DNA of 4,387 bases from a virus (taxonomy: Duplodnaviria > Heunggongvirae > Uroviricota > Caudoviricetes), in the IMG/VR virus record IMGVR_UViG_2698536307_000013. One strand, written 5' to 3'. Within the stretch, counting starts at the first letter, position 1. The number at the start of each line of letters is the position of its first letter. Below the pieces are notes generated by a model that did not search any database, was not told the DNA's origin, and worked only from the letters and a program-made list of their open reading frames with translations. A program made the translations under genes and the position numbers. This document shows positions 1 to 4,387 of this stretch, in pieces.

Positions 1-27
1 TGCACGATAGAGCAGGTGGTGAACTGA
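1..27 (+). CDS. M: 3' terminal fragment (last 8 codons plus TGA stop) of an upstream copy of tail tip protein M; 5' end lies outside the window
   Basis: Bases 1-27 encode CTIEQVVN-stop and are identical to the 3' end of the complete M gene at 913-939. The same ATGA-style 1-nt overlap with the following ATG at 27 is present. Confidence 0.5.
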   Translation, partial: CTIEQVVN

Positions 28-526
28 TGCAGGATATTCACGAAGAAAGCCTGAACGAGTCGGTTAAGTCAGAGCAGTCACCGCGTGTGGTACTCTGGGA
101 AATCGACCTGACGGTGCAGGGCGGTGAGCGCTATTTTTTCTGCAATGAACTGAATGAAAAAGGGGAGCCGGTCACCTGGCAGGGGCGGCAATATCAGGCG
201 TACCCGATTGACGGCAGCGGCTTTGAGATGAACGGGAAGGGCAGCAGTGCCAGACCGTCGCTGACGGTGTCCAATCTGTTTGGCCTTGTCACCGGAATGG
301 CGGAGGACCTGCAGAGCCTGGTGGGGGCCACGGTGGTCCGCCGCCGGGTGTATGCCCGTTTTCTGGATGCGGTGAATTTTGTGGCGGGCAATCCGGAAGC
401 GGACCCGGAGCAGGAGCTGAGCGACCGCTGGGTGGTGGAGCAGATGTCAGAGCTGACGGCCATGACAGCCTCGTTTGTGCTGGCAACACCGACGGAGACG
501 GACGGAGCGCTGTTTCCCGGTCGCAT
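1..526 (+). repeat. Copy A of a diverged direct repeat (M 3' end plus L 5' ~500 bp); offset 912 bp to copy B
   Basis: Direct comparison of 1-526 with 913-1438 shows about 15 single-base differences (hand-counted), all at codon third positions. The window begins inside the repeat, so it may extend upstream. Confidence 0.85.
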
Positions 527-605
527 ACTTGTGCAGCTGATTGACCAGCGGGTGCAGGCGGTGATGCTGTCCATGCGACGTGACGGAGGAATGCTGAGTG
601 GCTGA
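27..605 (+). CDS. Truncated, chimeric tail tip assembly protein L-like ORF (192 aa): L residues 1-167 fused to an unrelated 25-aa C-terminal tail (LVQLIDQRVQAVMLSMRRDGGMLSG), possibly the 3' end of a tape-measure (H-like) gene; probably a pseudogene or remnant
   Basis: The first 167 aa are identical to the full L at 939-1637. Identity ends near nt 524-527, after which the ORF runs in a different sequence context and stops at 603-605, overlapping the M start. It lacks the Cys-rich C-terminus of L. Confidence 0.6.
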   Translation: MQDIHEESLNESVKSEQSPRVVLWEIDLTVQGGERYFFCNELNEKGEPVTWQGRQYQAYPIDGSGFEMNGKGSSARPSLTVSNLFGLVTGMAEDLQSLVGATVVRRRVYARFLDAVNFVAGNPEADPEQELSDRWVVEQMSELTAMTASFVLATPTETDGALFPGRILVQLIDQRVQAVMLSMRRDGGMLSG

Positions 606-939
606 GATAAAAACGCTGCATCTGGTCCCGCGTGAAGGGATGCAGGTGAGTGAGAAGCCGTCGGTGGTGAGGGTGCGGTTTGGTGACGGTTATGAACAGC
701 GCCGCCCCACAGGGCTGAATCCTCAACTGAAGACGTTTCAGGCGGTGTTCCGGGTGACGGATGAGTCAACCCGGCGCTGGCTGGAAGAGTTTTTATCGTG
801 GCATGGTGGTTACCGTGCCTTTTTGTGGCGACCGCCGAAACATAACCGGACGGTGAGGGTTGTGTGCCGTGAGTGGAGTGTCACGGATAATGCCCGGTAC
901 AGTGATTTCAGTTGCACGATAGAGCAGGTGGTGAACTGA
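598..939 (+). CDS. M: Tail tip protein M (lambda gpM homolog), 113 aa
   Basis: The protein aligns with lambda gpM as recalled: a shared RFGDGY motif and an identical EQVVN C-terminus. GTG start at 598 sits 7 nt after a GGAGGA Shine-Dalgarno (585-590). Stop TGA 937-939 overlaps the L ATG by 1 nt. Confidence 0.88.
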   Translation: MAEIKTLHLVPREGMQVSEKPSVVRVRFGDGYEQRRPTGLNPQLKTFQAVFRVTDESTRRWLEEFLSWHGGYRAFLWRPPKHNRTVRVVCREWSVTDNARYSDFSCTIEQVVN

Positions 940-1438
940 TGCAGGATATTCACGAAGAAAGTCTGAACGAGTCGGTTAAATCAGAGCAGTCACCGCGGGT
1001 GGTGCTCTGGGAAATTGACCTGACGGTGCAGGGCGGTGAGCGGTATTTTTTCTGTAATGAGCTGAATGAAAAAGGGGAGCCGGTCACCTGGCAGGGGCGG
1101 CAATATCAGGCATACCCGATTGACGGCAGCGGTTTTGAGATGAACGGGAAGGGCAGCAGTGCCAGACCGTCGCTGACGGTGTCCAATCTGTTTGGTCTGG
1201 TCACCGGGATGGCGGAGGACCTGCAGAGCCTGGTGGGGGCCACGGTGGTCCGCCGCCGGGTGTATGCCCGTTTTCTGGATGCGGTGAATTTTGTGGCGGG
1301 CAATCCGGAAGCGGACCCGGAGCAGGAGCTGAGCGACCGCTGGGTGGTGGAGCAGATGTCAGAGCTGACGGCCATGACAGCCTCGTTTGTGCTGGCAACA
1401 CCGACGGAGACGGACGGAGCGCTGTTTCCCGGTCGTAT
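913..1438 (+). repeat. Copy B of the diverged direct repeat (within the intact M 3' end and L 5' region)
   Basis: Matches 1-526 at an offset of 912 bp; see copy A. Confidence 0.85.
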
Positions 1439-1637
1439 CATGCTGGCGAACACCTGTATGTGGACCTACCGCTCTGATGAGTGTGGTTACACGGGCGGGG
1501 CTGTGGCGGATGAGTTCGATAAACCCACCACGGATATCCGTAAGGACAGATGCAGCAAGTGCATGCGCGGGTGTGAGATGCGCGGCATGGTGGCTAATTT
1601 TGGCGGTTTCCTTTCCATCAATAAACTTTCGCAGTAA
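939..1637 (+). CDS. L: Tail tip assembly protein L (lambda gpL homolog), 232 aa, with a C-terminal cysteine cluster
   Basis: Strong similarity to lambda gpL as recalled (VVLWEIDLT, GGERYFFCNE, VTWQGRQYQ, FGGFLSINKLSQ C-terminus). The 699-nt length matches lambda L. ATG at 939 follows an AGGTGG Shine-Dalgarno (926-931). The track's 912 start is an upstream extension into M and is not used. Confidence 0.93.
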   Translation: MQDIHEESLNESVKSEQSPRVVLWEIDLTVQGGERYFFCNELNEKGEPVTWQGRQYQAYPIDGSGFEMNGKGSSARPSLTVSNLFGLVTGMAEDLQSLVGATVVRRRVYARFLDAVNFVAGNPEADPEQELSDRWVVEQMSELTAMTASFVLATPTETDGALFPGRIMLANTCMWTYRSDECGYTGGAVADEFDKPTTDIRKDRCSKCMRGCEMRGMVANFGGFLSINKLSQ

Positions 1638-1647
1638 ATCCTGTTTT

Positions 1648-2391
1648 ATGACACAGACTGAATCAGCGATTCTGGCGCATGCCCGGCGGTGTGCGCCTGC
1701 GGAGTCGTGCGGCTTCGTGGTGAGAACGCCGGAGGGGGAGCGGTATATCCCTTGTGTGAATATCTCTGCAGAGCCGGAGGCGTATTTTCGTATTGCACCG
1801 GAAGACTGGCTGCGGGCAGAGATGCAGGGGGAGATTGTGGCACTGGTCCACAGTCATCCCGGTGGTCTGCCCTGGCTGAGCGAGGCCGACCGGCGGCTGC
1901 AGATAAAAAGTGCACTGTCCTGGTGGCTGGTCTGCCGGGGGGACATTCATAAATTCCGCTGTGTGCCGCACCTGACGGGACGGCGCTTTGCGCACGGGGT
2001 GACGGACTGTTACACGCTGTTCCGGGATGCCTACCATCTGGCGGGAATTGATATGCCGGATTTTGAGCGTGAGGATGACTGGTGGCGCAACGGCCAGAAC
2101 CTGTACCTGGACAATATGGCGGTCACCGGCTTTTACCGGGTGCCCCTGTCCTCTGCACAGGCGGGCGATATTCTGCTGTGCTGCTTTGGCGCATCGGTGG
2201 CCAATCATGCCGCCATATACTGCGGCAACGGTGAACTGCTTCACCATCTGCCAGAACAACTGAGTAAACGGGAGAGGTATTCTGAAAAATGGCAACGACG
2301 AACGCATTCTGTCTGGCGTCACCGCCACTGGCACGCATCTGCCTTCACGGGGATTTGCAACGATTTGGCCGCCGCCTCAGCCTGTACGTGA
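1648..2391 (+). CDS. K: Tail tip assembly protein K (lambda gpK homolog), 247 aa: N-terminal JAB/MPN (JAMM) metalloprotease-like domain plus C-terminal NlpC/P60 cysteine peptidase-like domain
   Basis: JAMM motif HSHPGGLPWLSEAD (H68-x-H70-x7-S78-x2-D81) with candidate upstream Glu (E19). NlpC/P60-like Cys in GVTDCYTLF (C121) and His in NHAAIY (H187). ATG at 1648 lies 11 nt after the L stop. The track ORF starting at 1387 overlaps L and is rejected. The start is somewhat uncertain; the next in-frame ATG is at 1822. Confidence 0.88.
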   Translation: MTQTESAILAHARRCAPAESCGFVVRTPEGERYIPCVNISAEPEAYFRIAPEDWLRAEMQGEIVALVHSHPGGLPWLSEADRRLQIKSALSWWLVCRGDIHKFRCVPHLTGRRFAHGVTDCYTLFRDAYHLAGIDMPDFEREDDWWRNGQNLYLDNMAVTGFYRVPLSSAQAGDILLCCFGASVANHAAIYCGNGELLHHLPEQLSKRERYSEKWQRRTHSVWRHRHWHASAFTGICNDLAAASACT

Positions 2392-2969
2392 ACACGGCAG
2401 CGGAAGCCATCCGTGCCCTGTCGATGCAGATGCCGGGCTTTCGCCGTCAGATGAACGAAGGCTGGTACCAGATACGTATTCGCGGTGAGGACACGGCACC
2501 GGAGGCGGTGTACGCCCGTCTTCACGAACCTCTGGGTGAGGGGGCGGTCATCCATATTGTGCCGCGACTGGTCGGAGCCGGAAAGGGCGGACTGCAGATT
2601 GTGCTGGGGGCGGCGGCCATCGTGGGGTCGTTCTTCACGGCCGGGGCATCAATGGCGTTATGGGGTTCAGCCCTGGCAGCCGGTGGTTTTTCTGCCACCA
2701 CGATGCTGTTTTCACTGGGGGCTAGCATGATACTGGGCGGTGTGGCCCAGATGCTGGCACCGAAGGCAAAAACACCGGATTACCGCGCAACGGATAACGG
2801 TAAACAGAACACGTATTTTTCCTCACTGGACAATATGATTGCCCAGGGTAACCCGATGCCGGTGCCTTATGGTGAAATGCTGGTTGGTTCACGACGGATA
2901 TCCCAGGACATCAGTACCCGTGATGAAGGCGGTGGCGGAAAGGTTGTGGTTATCGGGCGGCAGGGGTAA
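2289..2969 (+). CDS. I: Tail tip assembly protein I (lambda gpI homolog), 226 aa; N-terminal ubiquitin-like region and a Gly/Ala-rich hydrophobic central segment
   Basis: Similarity to lambda gpI as recalled (ARICL.GDLQRFGRR, AVIHIVPR, KQNTYFSSLDNM.AQGN, VVVIGR). GGGAGAGG Shine-Dalgarno at 2270-2277. Overlaps the K 3' end by 103 nt in a different frame, as in lambda. Confidence 0.9.
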   Translation: MATTNAFCLASPPLARICLHGDLQRFGRRLSLYVNTAAEAIRALSMQMPGFRRQMNEGWYQIRIRGEDTAPEAVYARLHEPLGEGAVIHIVPRLVGAGKGGLQIVLGAAAIVGSFFTAGASMALWGSALAAGGFSATTMLFSLGASMILGGVAQMLAPKAKTPDYRATDNGKQNTYFSSLDNMIAQGNPMPVPYGEMLVGSRRISQDISTRDEGGGGKVVVIGRQG

Positions 2970-2984
2970 AAAGAATAAAACAAT

Positions 2985-3000
2985 CCCGCAGAGTTGCGGG
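2985..3000. other. Short GC-rich hairpin (CCCGCA-GAGT-TGCGGG) 16 nt after the I stop; possible RNA 3' stability element, or a terminator on the minus strand where it is followed by a T-rich run
   Basis: Perfect 6-bp inverted repeat with a 4-nt loop. On the + strand no T-tract follows. The reverse complement is followed by ATTGTTTTATTCTTTTT. Confidence 0.3.
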
Positions 3001-3032
3001 GACAGACAAAGATTAACGTTAAGGAGTTATTT

Positions 3033-3137
3033 TTGTTTCTGGTGCTCGGGCAAAAAAACATTAACGCAGAGAAATTATTAGCACCACAGTCAGTTTGTGA
3101 AAATGTGAAGATATTCAGAAGTTTTATTCCGTCATGA
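3033..3137 (+). CDS. Hypothetical 34-aa mini-ORF (MFLVLGQKNINAEKLLAPQSVCENVKIFRSFIPS) in the I-J spacer; speculative
   Basis: Consensus Shine-Dalgarno AAGGAG (3021-3026) lies 6 nt upstream of TTG at 3033. The ORF stops at TGA 3135-3137, immediately before an intrinsic terminator. The segment is AT-rich compared with its flanks. No homology is recognised. Confidence 0.15.
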   Translation: MFLVLGQKNINAEKLLAPQSVCENVKIFRSFIPS

Positions 3138-3139
3138 TG

Positions 3140-3169
3140 CAGGCATCCTCCGGGATGCCTGTTGTTTTT
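3140..3169 (+). terminator. Rho-independent (intrinsic) terminator-like hairpin with T-tract in the I-J intergenic region
   Basis: Stem CAGGCATCC (3140-3148) pairs with GGATGCCTG (3153-3161) around loop TCCG, followed by TTGTTTTT (3162-3169). Perfect 9-bp GC-rich stem. Confidence 0.6.
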
Positions 3170-3203
3170 GTGCGTAACAGTTATCACAGTAAAGGGTGAG
3201 ACA

Positions 3204-4387
3204 ATGGGCAAAGGTGGCGGCAAGGCGCACACACCGCGCGAGGCGAAGGACAATCTCAAATCCACGCAGATGATGAGTGTGATTGATGCGATTGGTGAGG
3301 GACCGATAGAAGGCCCGGTGAAGGGGCTGCAGAGTATCCTGGTGAACAAAACCCCGCTGACGGACACGGACGGCAATCCTGTGATACACGGTGTGACCGC
3401 GGTCTGGCGCGCCGGGGAGCAGGAGCAGACACCACCGGAAGGCTTTGAGTCCTCCGGAGCTGAAACCGGACTGGGCGTGGAAGTGACGAAGGCAAAGCCG
3501 GTAACGCGCACCATTACGTCCGCGAACATTGACCGCCTGCGGGTTACCTTCGGGGTGCAGTCACTGGTGGAGACCACCTCAAAGGGTGACCGTAACCCGA
3601 CGTCTGTCCGCCTGCTGATTCAGCTTGAGCGTGGTGGTAAATGGATGACGGAAAAGGATGTCACCATTAACGGCAAGACCACCTCACAGTACCTGGCGTC
3701 GGTGATTCTGGATAATCTGCCTCCCCGTCCTTTTAACATCCGGATGGTCCGGGAGACAGCGGACAGCACCACGGACCAGTTGCAGAATAAGACGCTCTGG
3801 TCGTCATACACCGAAATCATCGATGTGAAACAGTGCTACCCGAACACGGCGATTGTGGGGCTGCAGGTGGATGCGGAGCAGTTTGGCGGTCAGCAGATGA
3901 CGGTGAACTACCATATCCGCGGTCGCATCATCCAGGTACCGTCAAACTATGACCCGGAAAAACGCACTTACAGCGGCATCTGGGACGGCAGCCTGAAACC
4001 GGCATACAGCAACAACCCTGCCTGGTGCCTGTGGGACATGCTGACTCACCCGCGCTACGGCATGGGAAAACGTCTGGGGGCGGCGGATGTGGACAAGTGG
4101 GCGCTGTATGCCATCGGGCAGTACTGCGACCAGATGGTGCCGGATGGCTTCGGGGGCACCGAGCCGCGGATGACCTTCAATGCGTACCTGGCACAACAGC
4201 GTAAGGCGTGGGATGTTCTCAGTGATTTCTGCTCGGCGATGCGCTGTATGCCGGTATGGAACGGTCAGACGCTGACGTTCGTTCAGGACCGCCCGTCGGA
4301 TGTGGTGTGGCCGTACACCAACAGCGATGTGGTGGTGGATGATAACGGCGTGGGGTTTCGCTACAGCTTCAGCGCCCTGAAGGACCG
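3204..4387 (+). CDS. J: Host specificity / central tail fiber protein J (lambda gpJ homolog), N-terminal 394 codons; 3' end lies beyond the window
   Basis: Open frame from ATG 3204 to the window end with no stop. The N-terminus MGKGGGKAHTPREAKDNLKSTQ and long stretches (TTSKGDRNP, NKTLWSSYTEIIDVKQCYPNTA, AWCLWDMLTHPRYGMGKRLGAADVDKWALY, FCSAMRCMPVWNGQTLTFVQDRPSD) match lambda gpJ as recalled. Shine-Dalgarno-like AAGGGTGAG precedes the ATG. Confidence 0.93.
   Translation, partial: MGKGGGKAHTPREAKDNLKSTQMMSVIDAIGEGPIEGPVKGLQSILVNKTPLTDTDGNPVIHGVTAVWRAGEQEQTPPEGFESSGAETGLGVEVTKAKPVTRTITSANIDRLRVTFGVQSLVETTSKGDRNPTSVRLLIQLERGGKWMTEKDVTINGKTTSQYLASVILDNLPPRPFNIRMVRETADSTTDQLQNKTLWSSYTEIIDVKQCYPNTAIVGLQVDAEQFGGQQMTVNYHIRGRIIQVPSNYDPEKRTYSGIWDGSLKPAYSNNPAWCLWDMLTHPRYGMGKRLGAADVDKWALYAIGQYCDQMVPDGFGGTEPRMTFNAYLAQQRKAWDVLSDFCSAMRCMPVWNGQTLTFVQDRPSDVVWPYTNSDVVVDDNGVGFRYSFSALKD

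What the first reader, a model, noticed from the sequence alone, without database searches (positions are those of the whole stretch)
1648..2391. K encodes a two-domain JAB/MPN plus NlpC/P60 protein; this homolog favours the long N-terminal form
The JAMM signature (H-x-H-x7-S-x2-D at residues 68-81) and NlpC/P60-like Cys and His are readable directly. From memory, the lambda reference K is annotated as 199 aa from an internal Met, which would cut into the MPN domain. Here the equivalent position is Ile (FRIAPEDW), and an ATG sits 11 nt after the L stop. That supports a 247-aa K with a complete MPN domain. The pairing of a JAB peptidase with a ubiquitin-like gpI has been proposed in the literature as a phage ubiquitin-like processing system.
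Basis: partly seen in the sequence, partly recalled or inferred. Interest (0 to 1): 0.4.

Follow-up and report, generated by a model that had tools for sequence, protein, structure and literature searches.

The report
Full-length lambda-type tail protein K
This is an ordinary, already-annotated 247-residue phage tail-tip assembly protein K with two peptidase domains, and the shorter 199-residue K of the phage lambda reference comes from one missing G in the 1982 sequence.

Summary
Window 1648-2391 (+) is an intact 247-codon ORF starting 11 nt after the L stop. It has a complete Prok-JAB/MPN domain (residues 3-105, with E19 and H68-x-H70-x7-S78-x2-D81) and an NlpC/P60 domain (residues 111-224, with C121, H187, H199). 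The long form is strongly supported. Residues 10-48 are as conserved as the rest of the JAB domain in 101 homologs of 32-59% identity. 102 of 107 distant cluster representatives align from the N-terminus. The AlphaFold2 model (pLDDT 97) puts residues 1-48 in the MPN core. Cutting to 199 residues removes JAB profile positions 1-62.

That G is present in 44 phage records, in lambda-gt10, and at 3,007 places in 2,247 complete E. coli genomes. The G-less allele occurs in 0 of 5,426 E. coli genomes. So lambda's real K is also 247 aa.

None of this is new. The exact protein is WP_053884989.1 ("C40 family peptidase"), and the JAB + NlpC/P60 architecture and K-I pairing were published in 2006. The substrate remains unknown.

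The parts
1648..2391 (+). K gene, 247 codons plus TGA. Encodes the tail-tip assembly protein K (28.1 kDa).
   Evidence: ORF and translation. Identical to WP_053884989.1. 85.4% identical to the corrected lambda K. phrog_30 'minor tail protein' covers residues 1-247.
1654..1962 (+). JAB/MPN (JAMM) metallopeptidase domain, residues 3-105.
   Evidence: Pfam PF14464, 58.3 bits, profile 3-113 of 114. PDB 2KKS aligns to residues 7-108. The AF2 model has helix 3-15 and strands 21-27, 30-36, 62-69, 91-96 and 99-103. Foldseek hits include 2KKS, PfJAMM1 5LD9/5LDA, AMSH and CSN5.
1702..1704 (+). Codon for Glu19, the JAMM catalytic glutamate, in P17-x-E19-x-C21-G22. It lies in the stretch that the 199-aa annotation omits.
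   Evidence: E19 is kept in 100 of 101 homologs and G22 in 101 of 101. It aligns to PNEACG of 2KKS.
1782..1782 (+). The G that corresponds to the base missing from the lambda reference (between J02459 positions 14266 and 14267).
   Evidence: Alignment A1. The variant '14266 C>CG' is listed for lambda-gt10 (PMC6760142 Table 5). 30-mer allele counts. Whole-genome comparison of LC730321 with J02459.
1792..1794 (+). ATT (Ile49), the position of the Met used as start codon in lambda's 199-aa annotation. It is preceded by a GGAGG that is part of the E-P-E-A coding sequence.
   Evidence: Position 49 is I in 72, L in 11 and M in 10 of 101. SD-like duplex dG is -9.5 kcal/mol.
1822..1824 (+). Internal in-frame ATG (Met59). 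Not a conserved start.
   Evidence: Position 59 is mostly D, E or K in homologs. The SD is weak, dG -3.6. A product from this ATG keeps only Prok-JAB profile positions 66-113.
1849..1890 (+). JAMM zinc-site motif H68-S-H70-x7-S78-x2-D81.
   Evidence: Read directly from the sequence. H68, H70 and D81 are kept in 101 of 101, and S78 in 95 of 101.
1978..2319 (+). NlpC/P60 (C40, papain-like) cysteine peptidase domain, residues 111-224. The triad is C121 (2008-2010), H187 (2206-2208) and H199 (2242-2244).
   Evidence: Pfam PF00877, 50 bits, profile 1-105 of 105. C121, H187 and H199 are each kept in 100 of 101. Foldseek hits include MepS 8XUP, Spr 2K1G, Acd33800 9UBF and LytE 8I2E.
939..1637 (+). 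L gene (minor tail protein L). Its stop codon lies 10 nt upstream of the K ATG.
   Evidence: Pfam PF05100 at E 9.3e-92. No Shine-Dalgarno sequence precedes the K ATG, dG +0.6, so coupling to L is inferred.
2289..2969 (+). I gene, 226 aa. It has an N-terminal ubiquitin-like domain and overlaps the K 3' end by 103 nt in the -1 frame.
   Evidence: Pfam PF06805 on residues 15-97. SD dG is -8.6 before ATG 2289, against +0.8 before GTG 2388. The N-terminus and G96/G101 are conserved.

Best explanation
Window 1648-2391 is the K gene of a lambda-like (Stx-phage-type) tail-tip module ordered M-L-K-I-J. Its product is the full 247-residue, 28-kDa protein. The N-terminal half is a complete JAB/MPN (JAMM) zinc metallopeptidase domain (E19, H68, H70, S78, D81). 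The C-terminal half is an NlpC/P60 papain-like cysteine peptidase domain (C121, H187, H199).

Shown here: the ORF, both domains, their catalytic residues, their conservation, and the gene order.

Also shown: authentic lambda K has the same 247-residue form. The 199-residue K in the lambda reference and in UniProt TIPK_LAMBD comes from one G missing after position 14266 of the 1982 sequence. That gap puts the first 44 codons in another frame.

Inferred: translation starts at ATG 1648 by coupling to termination of L 10 nt upstream, because there is no Shine-Dalgarno sequence.

Inferred from the literature and the anatomy: K is a non-structural or sub-stoichiometric assembly enzyme that acts on the J-I-L tail-tip intermediate. 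Its JAMM domain most likely recognises the ubiquitin-like N-terminal domain of gpI. It would cut after the conserved glycines that end that domain (lambda gpI G96-G101), leaving the C-terminal part of gpI as the plug seen in virions. The NlpC/P60 domain would do a second processing step or cut peptidoglycan. Neither substrate has been demonstrated.
For: ORF and domains.

The N-terminal 48 residues belong to the protein:
- E19 is kept in 100, G22 in 101, N38 in 101, F47 in 98, C21 in 96 and P17 in 91 of 101 homologs at 32-59% identity.
- Column entropy is 2.37 for residues 10-48 and 2.44 for residues 59-108.
- 102 of 107 cluster representatives below 62% identity align from K residue 20 or earlier through residue 215 or later. 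101 of those 102 carry E-x-C-G.
- Codons 1-48 differ from lambda at 11 synonymous and 3 nonsynonymous codons.
- The AF2 model has mean pLDDT 97.2 and pTM 0.91, and residues 1-48 form helix 1 and two core strands.
- The solved JAB protein 2KKS aligns to residues 7-108.
- Foldseek returns both JAMM and NlpC/P60 structures.
- Truncated forms score 25.4 and 24.0 bits for Prok-JAB against 58.3 bits for the full form. For lambda the figures are 23.3 bits (199 aa, below the cut-off of 25) and 52.3 bits (247 aa).

The lambda reference gap:
- Alignment A1 places the missing G.
- Lambda-gt10 carries the variant 14266 C>CG (PMC6760142).
- The G-less 30-mer is in 4 phage records and in 0 of 5,426 complete E. 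coli genomes. The 30-mer with G is in 44 phage records and at 3,007 places in 2,247 genomes.
- LC730321 carries the G.
- PV340536 annotates lambda K as 744 nt.

Existing annotation of the long form.

Mechanism:
- Iyer et al. 2006 proposed that K processes I (PMC1779556).
- gpK was not detected in virions by mass spectrometry (PMC10721106).
- gpI is resolved only from residue 101 (PMC11101478) or from 134/135.
- gpI G96 is invariant and G101 is kept in at least 90% of homologs.
Against: - There is no Shine-Dalgarno sequence upstream of ATG 1648, so the start rests on comparative evidence and not on an initiation signal.
- No proteomic or N-terminal data exist for this protein.
- Two phage records (OR474059, OR974322) share the G-less lambda allele. 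They may be reference-guided assemblies, but this was not checked.
- Processing of gpI by K is untested. The unresolved N-terminal domain of gpI in cryo-EM maps could simply be flexible. The virion mass spectrometry found only one gpI peptide, and its position is not given.
Confidence: 0.88

Rival explanations
1. The functional K is a short product made by internal initiation, either at ATG 1822 (Met59) or at the codon aligned with lambda's annotated start. On this reading the upstream 48-58 codons are untranslated or irrelevant.
For: The lambda reference, UniProt TIPK_LAMBD and several derived records annotate 199 aa. A GGAGG lies 11 nt upstream of codon 49, with dG -9.5.
Against: Codon 49 is ATT in the window and Met in only 10 of 101 homologs. 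Position 59 is not conserved as Met. The upstream region is as conserved as the rest of the domain, contains the invariant JAMM glutamate, and shows a synonymous bias of 11:3. The short forms lose more than half of the JAB profile. The lambda annotation itself follows from a missing base.
Confidence: 0.03
2. Two products are made. The full-length K is one. The other is an N-terminally truncated, NlpC/P60-only form made from an internal start, at least in lambda-type alleles that have ATG at codon 49 behind the GGAGG.
For: In lambda the GGAGG-N11-ATG arrangement looks like a usable ribosome-binding site. Iyer et al. noted phage K versions with only the NlpC/P60 domain (PMC1779556).
Against: The window has ATT at that codon, and 91 of 101 homologs lack Met there. 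The signal is therefore not conserved, and the GGAGG is explained by the coding sequence E-P-E-A. There are no expression data.
Confidence: 0.08
3. The NlpC/P60 domain is the main business end. On this reading K is a peptidoglycan peptidase carried in the tail lumen in one or a few copies and released at infection, as proposed for RcGTA g14. It would not be a protease acting on phage proteins.
For: The best structural neighbours are the peptidoglycan endopeptidases MepS/Spr, LytE and the Acd autolysins. There is a weak match to TIGR02219 'putative phage cell wall peptidase'. RcGTA g14 degrades peptidoglycan and is needed for tail formation (PMC7296036). The enzyme that cuts the cell wall for lambda is unidentified (PMC11101478).
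Against: gpK was not detected in lambda virions by mass spectrometry, nor resolved in three cryo-EM studies. This reading does not explain the strictly conserved JAMM site fused to the NlpC/P60 domain, nor its constant pairing with a ubiquitin-like neighbour. The TIGR02219 score of 25 bits is far below its cut-off of 81.9.
Confidence: 0.2
4. The JAB domain is a catalytically silent binding module. It would act as a chaperone that holds the ubiquitin-like domain of gpI during tip assembly without cutting it.
For: Many MPN domains in eukaryotic complexes are non-catalytic scaffolds (general knowledge). No cleavage of gpI has ever been reported, and the cryo-EM papers treat the gpI N-terminus as merely unresolved.
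Against: All five JAMM catalytic residues are present and nearly invariant across homologs down to 32% identity. That pattern is typical of active MPN+ enzymes, not of MPN- scaffolds.
Confidence: 0.12

Closest known systems
Bacteriophage lambda gpK (tail tip assembly protein K; UniProt TIPK_LAMBD, NP_040598)
   Same: Same gene position (M-L-K-I-J). Same 103-nt overlap with I. 85.4% identical over all 247 residues to the K of re-sequenced lambda, such as PV340536. Same two domains and the same catalytic residues.
   Different: Only the reference annotation differs. It gives 199 aa because J02459 lacks a G after position 14266. The window has Ile where lambda has Met49. There are 36 amino-acid differences, mostly in the NlpC/P60 half.
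TAPK family as defined by Iyer, Burroughs and Aravind 2006 (JAB + NlpC/P60 tail assembly proteins next to the ubiquitin-like TAPI)
   Same: Same architecture and the same neighbourhood: JAB + NlpC/P60, followed by an I protein with a beta-grasp domain, then J.
   Different: Nothing material. This is a typical member.
Prokaryotic JAMM enzymes that trim ubiquitin-like proteins (Pyrococcus furiosus JAMM1 with SAMP2, PDB 5LD9/5LDA; haloarchaeal desampylase NF041370; DSY2949, PDB 2KKS)
   Same: Same minimal MPN+ fold and the same E...HxHx7Sx2D site. A partner protein with a beta-grasp domain ending in glycines is encoded next door.
   Different: Sequence identity is only 19-26%, and the NF041370 score (30.6) is far below its cut-off (130). 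Here the domain is fused to a cysteine peptidase. The presumed substrate is a phage structural protein and not a SAMP, ThiS or MoaD carrier. No E1-like enzyme is present in the module.
RcGTA g14 / TIGR02219 phage NlpC/P60 cell-wall peptidase
   Same: An NlpC/P60 domain encoded in the same place in a siphovirus-type tail module, and needed for tail formation (PMC7296036). There is a weak profile match at E 1.6e-5.
   Different: g14 is a 150-residue single-domain protein without a JAB domain. The window protein scores 25.4 bits against a cut-off of 81.9, so it is not a member of that family.
E. coli MepS (Spr) and other NlpC/P60 peptidoglycan endopeptidases
   Same: Papain-like fold with a Cys-His-His triad. 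These are the top Foldseek matches for residues of about 110-230.
   Different: About 20% identity. K has no signal peptide or lipobox and is expected to be cytoplasmic during assembly. Its substrate is unknown.

Membership tests
JAB/MPN+ (JAMM) metallopeptidases, Pfam PF14464 Prok-JAB | Profile match above the curated threshold that covers the whole domain. | tested here: met
   58.3 bits against a cut-off of 25. Profile positions 3-113 of 114 on residues 3-105.
JAB/MPN+ (JAMM) metallopeptidases, Pfam PF14464 Prok-JAB | JAMM motif E-x(n)-H-x-H-x7-S-x2-D. | tested here: met
   E19, H68, H70, S78 and D81 are read from the sequence. They are kept in 100, 101, 101, 95 and 101 of 101 homologs.
JAB/MPN+ (JAMM) metallopeptidases, Pfam PF14464 Prok-JAB | MPN fold. 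| tested here: met
   AF2 model with pLDDT 97.2. Foldseek probability 1.00 to 2KKS, 5LD9/5LDA, AMSH and CSN5. This is a predicted structure, not a solved one.
JAB/MPN+ (JAMM) metallopeptidases, Pfam PF14464 Prok-JAB | Zinc-dependent (iso)peptidase activity. | not testable with these tools
   Needs biochemistry.
NlpC/P60 (MEROPS C40) cysteine peptidases, Pfam PF00877 | Profile match above the curated threshold. | tested here: met
   50.0 bits against a cut-off of 23. Profile positions 1-105 of 105 on residues 111-224.
NlpC/P60 (MEROPS C40) cysteine peptidases, Pfam PF00877 | Catalytic Cys, His and a third polar residue (His) in the canonical order. | tested here: met
   C121, H187 and H199 are each kept in 100 of 101 homologs.
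NlpC/P60 (MEROPS C40) cysteine peptidases, Pfam PF00877 | Papain-like alpha+beta fold. | tested here: met
   Foldseek hits to MepS 8XUP, Spr 2K1G, Acd33800 9UBF and LytE 8I2E, with target TM-scores of 0.56-0.68.
NlpC/P60 (MEROPS C40) cysteine peptidases, Pfam PF00877 | Peptidoglycan or peptide hydrolase activity. | not testable with these tools
   Needs biochemistry.
Lambda gpK / TAPK tail-tip assembly proteins | Position between L and I in an M-L-K-I-J tail-tip module. | tested here: met
   Pfam assignments for M, L, I and the J N-terminus. Annotated neighbours in JLK-2012 and lambda.
Lambda gpK / TAPK tail-tip assembly proteins | Full-length similarity to lambda K. | tested here: met
   211 of 247 residues identical (85.4%) to the corrected lambda K, with no gaps.
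Lambda gpK / TAPK tail-tip assembly proteins | Required for tail assembly and absent from mature virions. | not testable with these tools
   Known for lambda only, from the literature (PMC12617516, PMC10721106).
TIGR02219 phage_NlpC_fam (RcGTA g14-like cell-wall peptidase) | Score at or above the NCBIfam cut-off. | tested here: not met
   25.4 bits against a cut-off of 81.9.
NF041370 desampylase | Score at or above the NCBIfam cut-off. | tested here: not met
   30.6 bits against a cut-off of 130. The fold and active site are related, but this is not an equivalog.

The most novel reading that the evidence does not exclude
With its JAMM domain restored to full length, including the catalytic Glu19, K would be a working deubiquitinase-like protease of the phage. 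It would clip the ubiquitin-like N-terminal domain off gpI at the conserved G96-G101 glycines. That would produce the gpI form that begins near residue 101 in cryo-EM maps of the lambda tail tip. K, through either of its two peptidase domains, might also be the still-unidentified protease that converts the tape-measure protein gpH to gpH*. This would give a minimal, E1/E2-free ubiquitin-like maturation switch that controls tail-tip assembly.
Probability: 0.3. Interest if true: 0.6.

Novelty: already known. Interest (0 to 1): 0.22.

Why it matters
For the window itself, little changes. The gene is a standard K homolog and public databases already annotate it correctly.

The practical value is a curation point. 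The lambda reference records (J02459, NC_001416) and Swiss-Prot TIPK_LAMBD still give a 199-residue K. That form lacks 48 residues, half of the JAMM domain and its catalytic glutamate. A 2020 review analysed that truncated sequence and saw only 'a peptidase domain' (PMC7291167). Virion proteomics, structure prediction or mutagenesis of gpK based on the reference entry would use the wrong protein.

Open questions about lambda remain: where gpK acts, what cleaves gpH, and what happens to the gpI N-terminal domain. The full-length two-peptidase K is the right object for addressing them.

Tried and rejected
1. Programmed -1 frameshift making a K-I fusion.
- I lies in the -1 frame relative to K across the 103-nt overlap.
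- Fused K-I proteins exist in databases (P0024, P0044, P0120; phrog_28576).
- They are singletons or near-singletons, set against clusters of thousands of separate K and I proteins.
- I found no X-XXY-YYZ slippery heptamer in the K frame within 2287-2391 by reading the sequence.
- I therefore treat them as sequencing or assembly frameshifts.

2. A start upstream of 1648. The frame is open back to 1387, but that stretch is the L coding region in another frame. Distant homologs have a median of only about 7-11 residues before the first conserved column.

3. A structured RNA or regulatory element in the region. There were no Rfam hits at gathering score in the whole window. The terminator-like hit at 1763-1780 is inside the conserved coding sequence and is weak.

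4. Literature on the lambda K error. Five searches found no paper that states it explicitly. Only a variant-table entry turned up (PMC6760142). The Casjens and Hendrix 2015 review is not in the held library, so prior explicit reports cannot be excluded.

5. Peptide positions for gpI in the virion mass-spectrometry supplement of PMC10721106. Only the summary is held: 1 peptide, 9.87% coverage.

It was repeated without that row.

7. Source of the window. No complete RefSeq E. coli genome or phage record matches at more than 96.1%. The exact K protein is known only from three short contigs.
Full report
**What is in the window.** The 4,387-nt window is a lambda-like tail-tip module.
- It is 94-95% identical over its length to Stx-converting phages and to phage JLK-2012. 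It is at most 96.1% identical to any complete RefSeq E. coli genome.
- Pfam assigns 598-939 to M (PF05939), 939-1637 to L (PF05100), 1648-2391 to K and 2289-2969 to I (PF06805).
- J starts at ATG 3205 and runs off the end.

**The observation.**
- 1648-2391 (+) is an uninterrupted 247-codon ORF.
- The L stop (TAA 1635-1637) is followed by a 10-nt spacer and then the ATG.
- The motif H68-S-H70-x7-S78-x2-D81 sits at 1849-1890.
- The NlpC/P60 residues are C121 (2008-2010), H187 (2206-2208) and H199 (2242-2244).
- Pfam gives Prok-JAB PF14464 at E 8.5e-16 (58.3 bits, residues 3-105, profile positions 3-113 of 114). It gives NLPC_P60 PF00877 at E 3.3e-13 (residues 111-224, full profile).
- PHROG 30 'minor tail protein' covers residues 1-247.

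**Long form against short form.** The first could be tested, and it fails to refute.
- An exhaustive HMMER search of 1.84 billion cluster representatives found 2,804 relatives. Of the 107 listed representatives below 62% identity, 102 align from K residue 20 or earlier through residue 215 or later. Their median length is 244 aa, and 101 of them carry E-x-C-G near the N-terminus.
- In an alignment of 101 sequences at 32-59% identity to the window protein, P17 is kept in 91, E19 in 100, C21 in 96, G22 in 101, N38 in 101 and F47 in 98. Mean column entropy is 2.37 for residues 10-48 and 2.44 for residues 59-108.
- The residue aligned with lambda's annotated start (position 49) is Ile in 72, Leu in 11 and Met in 10 sequences. 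Position 59 is mostly Asp, Glu or Lys.
- Between the window and lambda, codons 1-48 differ at 11 synonymous and 3 nonsynonymous codons. That pattern is expected for translated sequence under purifying selection.
- The solved JAB protein 2KKS aligns to residues 7-108.
- An AlphaFold2 model built on 112 sequences has mean pLDDT 97.2 and pTM 0.91. It places residues 1-48 as helix 3-15 plus strands 21-27 and 30-36 of the MPN core.
- Foldseek returns two sets of solved structures. One set is JAMM enzymes (2KKS, P. furiosus JAMM1 with and without SAMP2, AMSH, CSN5, Rpn11). The other is NlpC/P60 endopeptidases (MepS/Spr, LytE, Acd autolysins). No solved chain has both domains.
- Products starting at codon 49 or 59 keep only Prok-JAB profile positions 63-113 or 66-113, at 25.4 and 24.0 bits. 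They also lose the match to the desampylase model.

**Why lambda K is annotated as 199 aa.** The reason is not just a choice of start codon.
- In the reference, the ATG that follows L (14133) opens a frame that reads 44 K-like codons. It then drifts out of frame and stops after 76 codons.
- Alignment with five other lambda-derived records shows that the reference lacks one G in GGAGGC[G]TATTTCC, between positions 14266 and 14267. The five are PV340536, LC730321, KT232076, lambda imm21 OM418625 and DE3 EU078592. The window and JLK-2012 also carry the G.
- The same change, '14266 C>CG', is listed among the constitutional variants of the lambda-gt10 transgene in MutaMouse whole-genome data (PMC6760142 Table 5).
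- A whole-genome comparison of LC730321 with J02459 finds this insertion among 15 differences. Another is the loss of G139, which lambda-gt10 also shows.
- Exact 30-mers spanning the site were counted. The G-less allele is in 4 phage records (J02459, its RefSeq copy, OR474059 and OR974322) and in 0 of 5,426 complete E. coli genomes. The allele with G is in 44 phage records and at 3,007 places in 2,247 genomes.
- With the G, lambda K is one 744-nt ORF. PV340536 annotates it that way. It is 85.4% identical to the window protein without gaps, and the 199-aa sequence is exactly its residues 49-247.
- The most economical reading is a single-base error in the 1982 sequence. A private mutation of the sequenced stock is much less likely, but only re-sequencing that stock can exclude it.
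- Swiss-Prot TIPK_LAMBD is still the 199-aa form. A 2020 review analysed 'residues 52-182 out of 199' and saw only one peptidase domain (PMC7291167).

**Start signal.** There is no Shine-Dalgarno complementarity before ATG 1648 (dG +0.6 kcal/mol). Initiation by coupling to termination of L is an inference. The GGAGG upstream of codon 49 (dG -9.5) is the 'RBS' marked in lambda-derived annotations. It is part of the conserved E-P-E-A coding sequence, and in the window it precedes ATT.

**How it probably works.**
- Shown here: two intact peptidase active sites, strictly conserved, in one 28-kDa protein encoded between L and I.
- From the literature: K is required for lambda tail assembly but its location is unknown (PMC12617516). 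It was not found in virions by mass spectrometry (PMC10721106).
- Iyer, Burroughs and Aravind (2006) described the JAB + NlpC/P60 architecture of K and the ubiquitin-like beta-grasp domain of I. They proposed that the JAB domain releases the ubiquitin-like domain by cutting at its C-terminal glycine (PMC1779556).
- Two results fit that proposal without proving it. First, in the gpI alignment G96 is invariant and G101 is kept in at least 90% of sequences, within V-P-R-x-x-G-A-x-x-G-G. Second, cryo-EM models of lambda gpI start at residue 101 (PMC11101478) or at 134/135, and the N-terminal domain is never seen.
- The same papers state that the protease for gpH to gpH* is unknown. They also state that the enzyme that cuts the cell wall is unidentified.
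- RcGTA g14 is a single-domain NlpC/P60 protein at the equivalent locus. It degrades peptidoglycan and is needed for tail formation (PMC7296036). This supports the rival reading in which K's C-terminal domain acts on the cell wall.
- My preferred model is that K is a transient assembly enzyme whose JAMM domain processes gpI. The role of the NlpC/P60 domain stays open.

**Comparison with what is known, and novelty.**
- The exact 247-aa protein is WP_053884989.1, 'C40 family peptidase'.
- RefSeq annotates the JLK-2012 homolog as 744 nt.
- Most homolog clusters are 242-249 aa and carry both Pfam domains.
- The protein meets every testable membership criterion for Prok-JAB, for NlpC/P60 and for lambda-type K. 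It does not reach the cut-offs of TIGR02219 or of the desampylase equivalog.

The finding is therefore correct but already known. The one useful addition is the explicit explanation of the truncated lambda reference entry. I did not find that explanation stated in the held literature.

Noticed in passing
window 1-605 versus 913-1435: The window opens with a second, truncated copy of the M 3' end plus L codons 1 to about 165. Copy 1 (1-523) differs from copy 2 (913-1435) at 13 positions, all within 1-296, and is identical over 297-523. At 524-527 it joins the last ~75 nt of gene H, giving a chimeric 192-aa ORF (27-605) made of L' plus the H tail. The best phage and E. coli matches span only about 3,860 nt and lack this 912-nt repeat. 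It is either recombination between related prophages or an assembly chimera.
   Followed up: partly
window 2289-2391 (K/I overlap) and GTG 2388: Databases disagree on the start of gene I. Lambda uses the ATG inside K (223 aa). PGAP calls a 193-aa I from the GTG that overlaps the K stop in JLK-2012, and many clusters are 193-210 aa. Three results favour the long form from ATG 2289. The Pfam Lambda_tail_I domain starts at residue 15 of the long form. ATG 2289 has an SD (dG -8.6) whereas GTG 2388 has none. The N-terminal MA...P stretch is conserved in homologs of 65-75% identity.
   Followed up: partly
window 2970-3204: The I-J intergenic region is 235 nt and AT-rich, against 60 nt in lambda. It holds a 47-codon ORF (2994-3137). 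It also holds a strong terminator-like hairpin (3139-3162, 10 bp, followed by TGTTTTTGTG) just upstream of the J start at 3205. Its function is unknown, and it looks like a small inserted element.
   Followed up: no
L011 (J02459) position 139 versus L010 (LC730321): A second single-base difference, loss of one G at reference position 137-139, is shared by LC730321 and by lambda-gt10 in MutaMouse ('137 AG>A'). The lambda reference may therefore carry another single-base error near the left end.
   Followed up: no
L010 (LC730321) before reference position 20836: LC730321 has an extra C here. From memory, this is near the site of the stf frameshift that separates laboratory lambda from Ur-lambda, so this isolate may have intact side tail fibres. 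Not checked.
   Followed up: no
proteins P0024, P0044, P0113, P0120; P0317, P0327, P0393, P0395, P0409; phrog_28576: Database entries and one PHROG profile fuse K (or its NlpC/P60 half) to I. Others fuse L to K (P0018, P0043, P0045, P0061). Almost all are singletons, so they are probably frameshifted assemblies. However, I is in the -1 frame of K, so a low-level natural fusion is not formally excluded.
   Followed up: partly
window I protein residues 92-101 (nt about 2562-2591); lambda gpI residues 92-101: The motif V-P-R-x-x-G-A-x-x-G-G ends the ubiquitin-like domain of gpI. G96 is invariant and G101 is kept in at least 90% of homologs. One cryo-EM model of lambda gpI begins exactly at residue 101 (PMC11101478). 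This fits cleavage after the glycines but does not prove it.
   Followed up: partly
phage records OR474059.1 and OR974322.1: These two recent 'lambda' records carry the G-less reference allele at 14266, which is otherwise unique to J02459. One of them comes from chicken cloacal swabs. They may be reference-guided assemblies of lambda control DNA.
   Followed up: no
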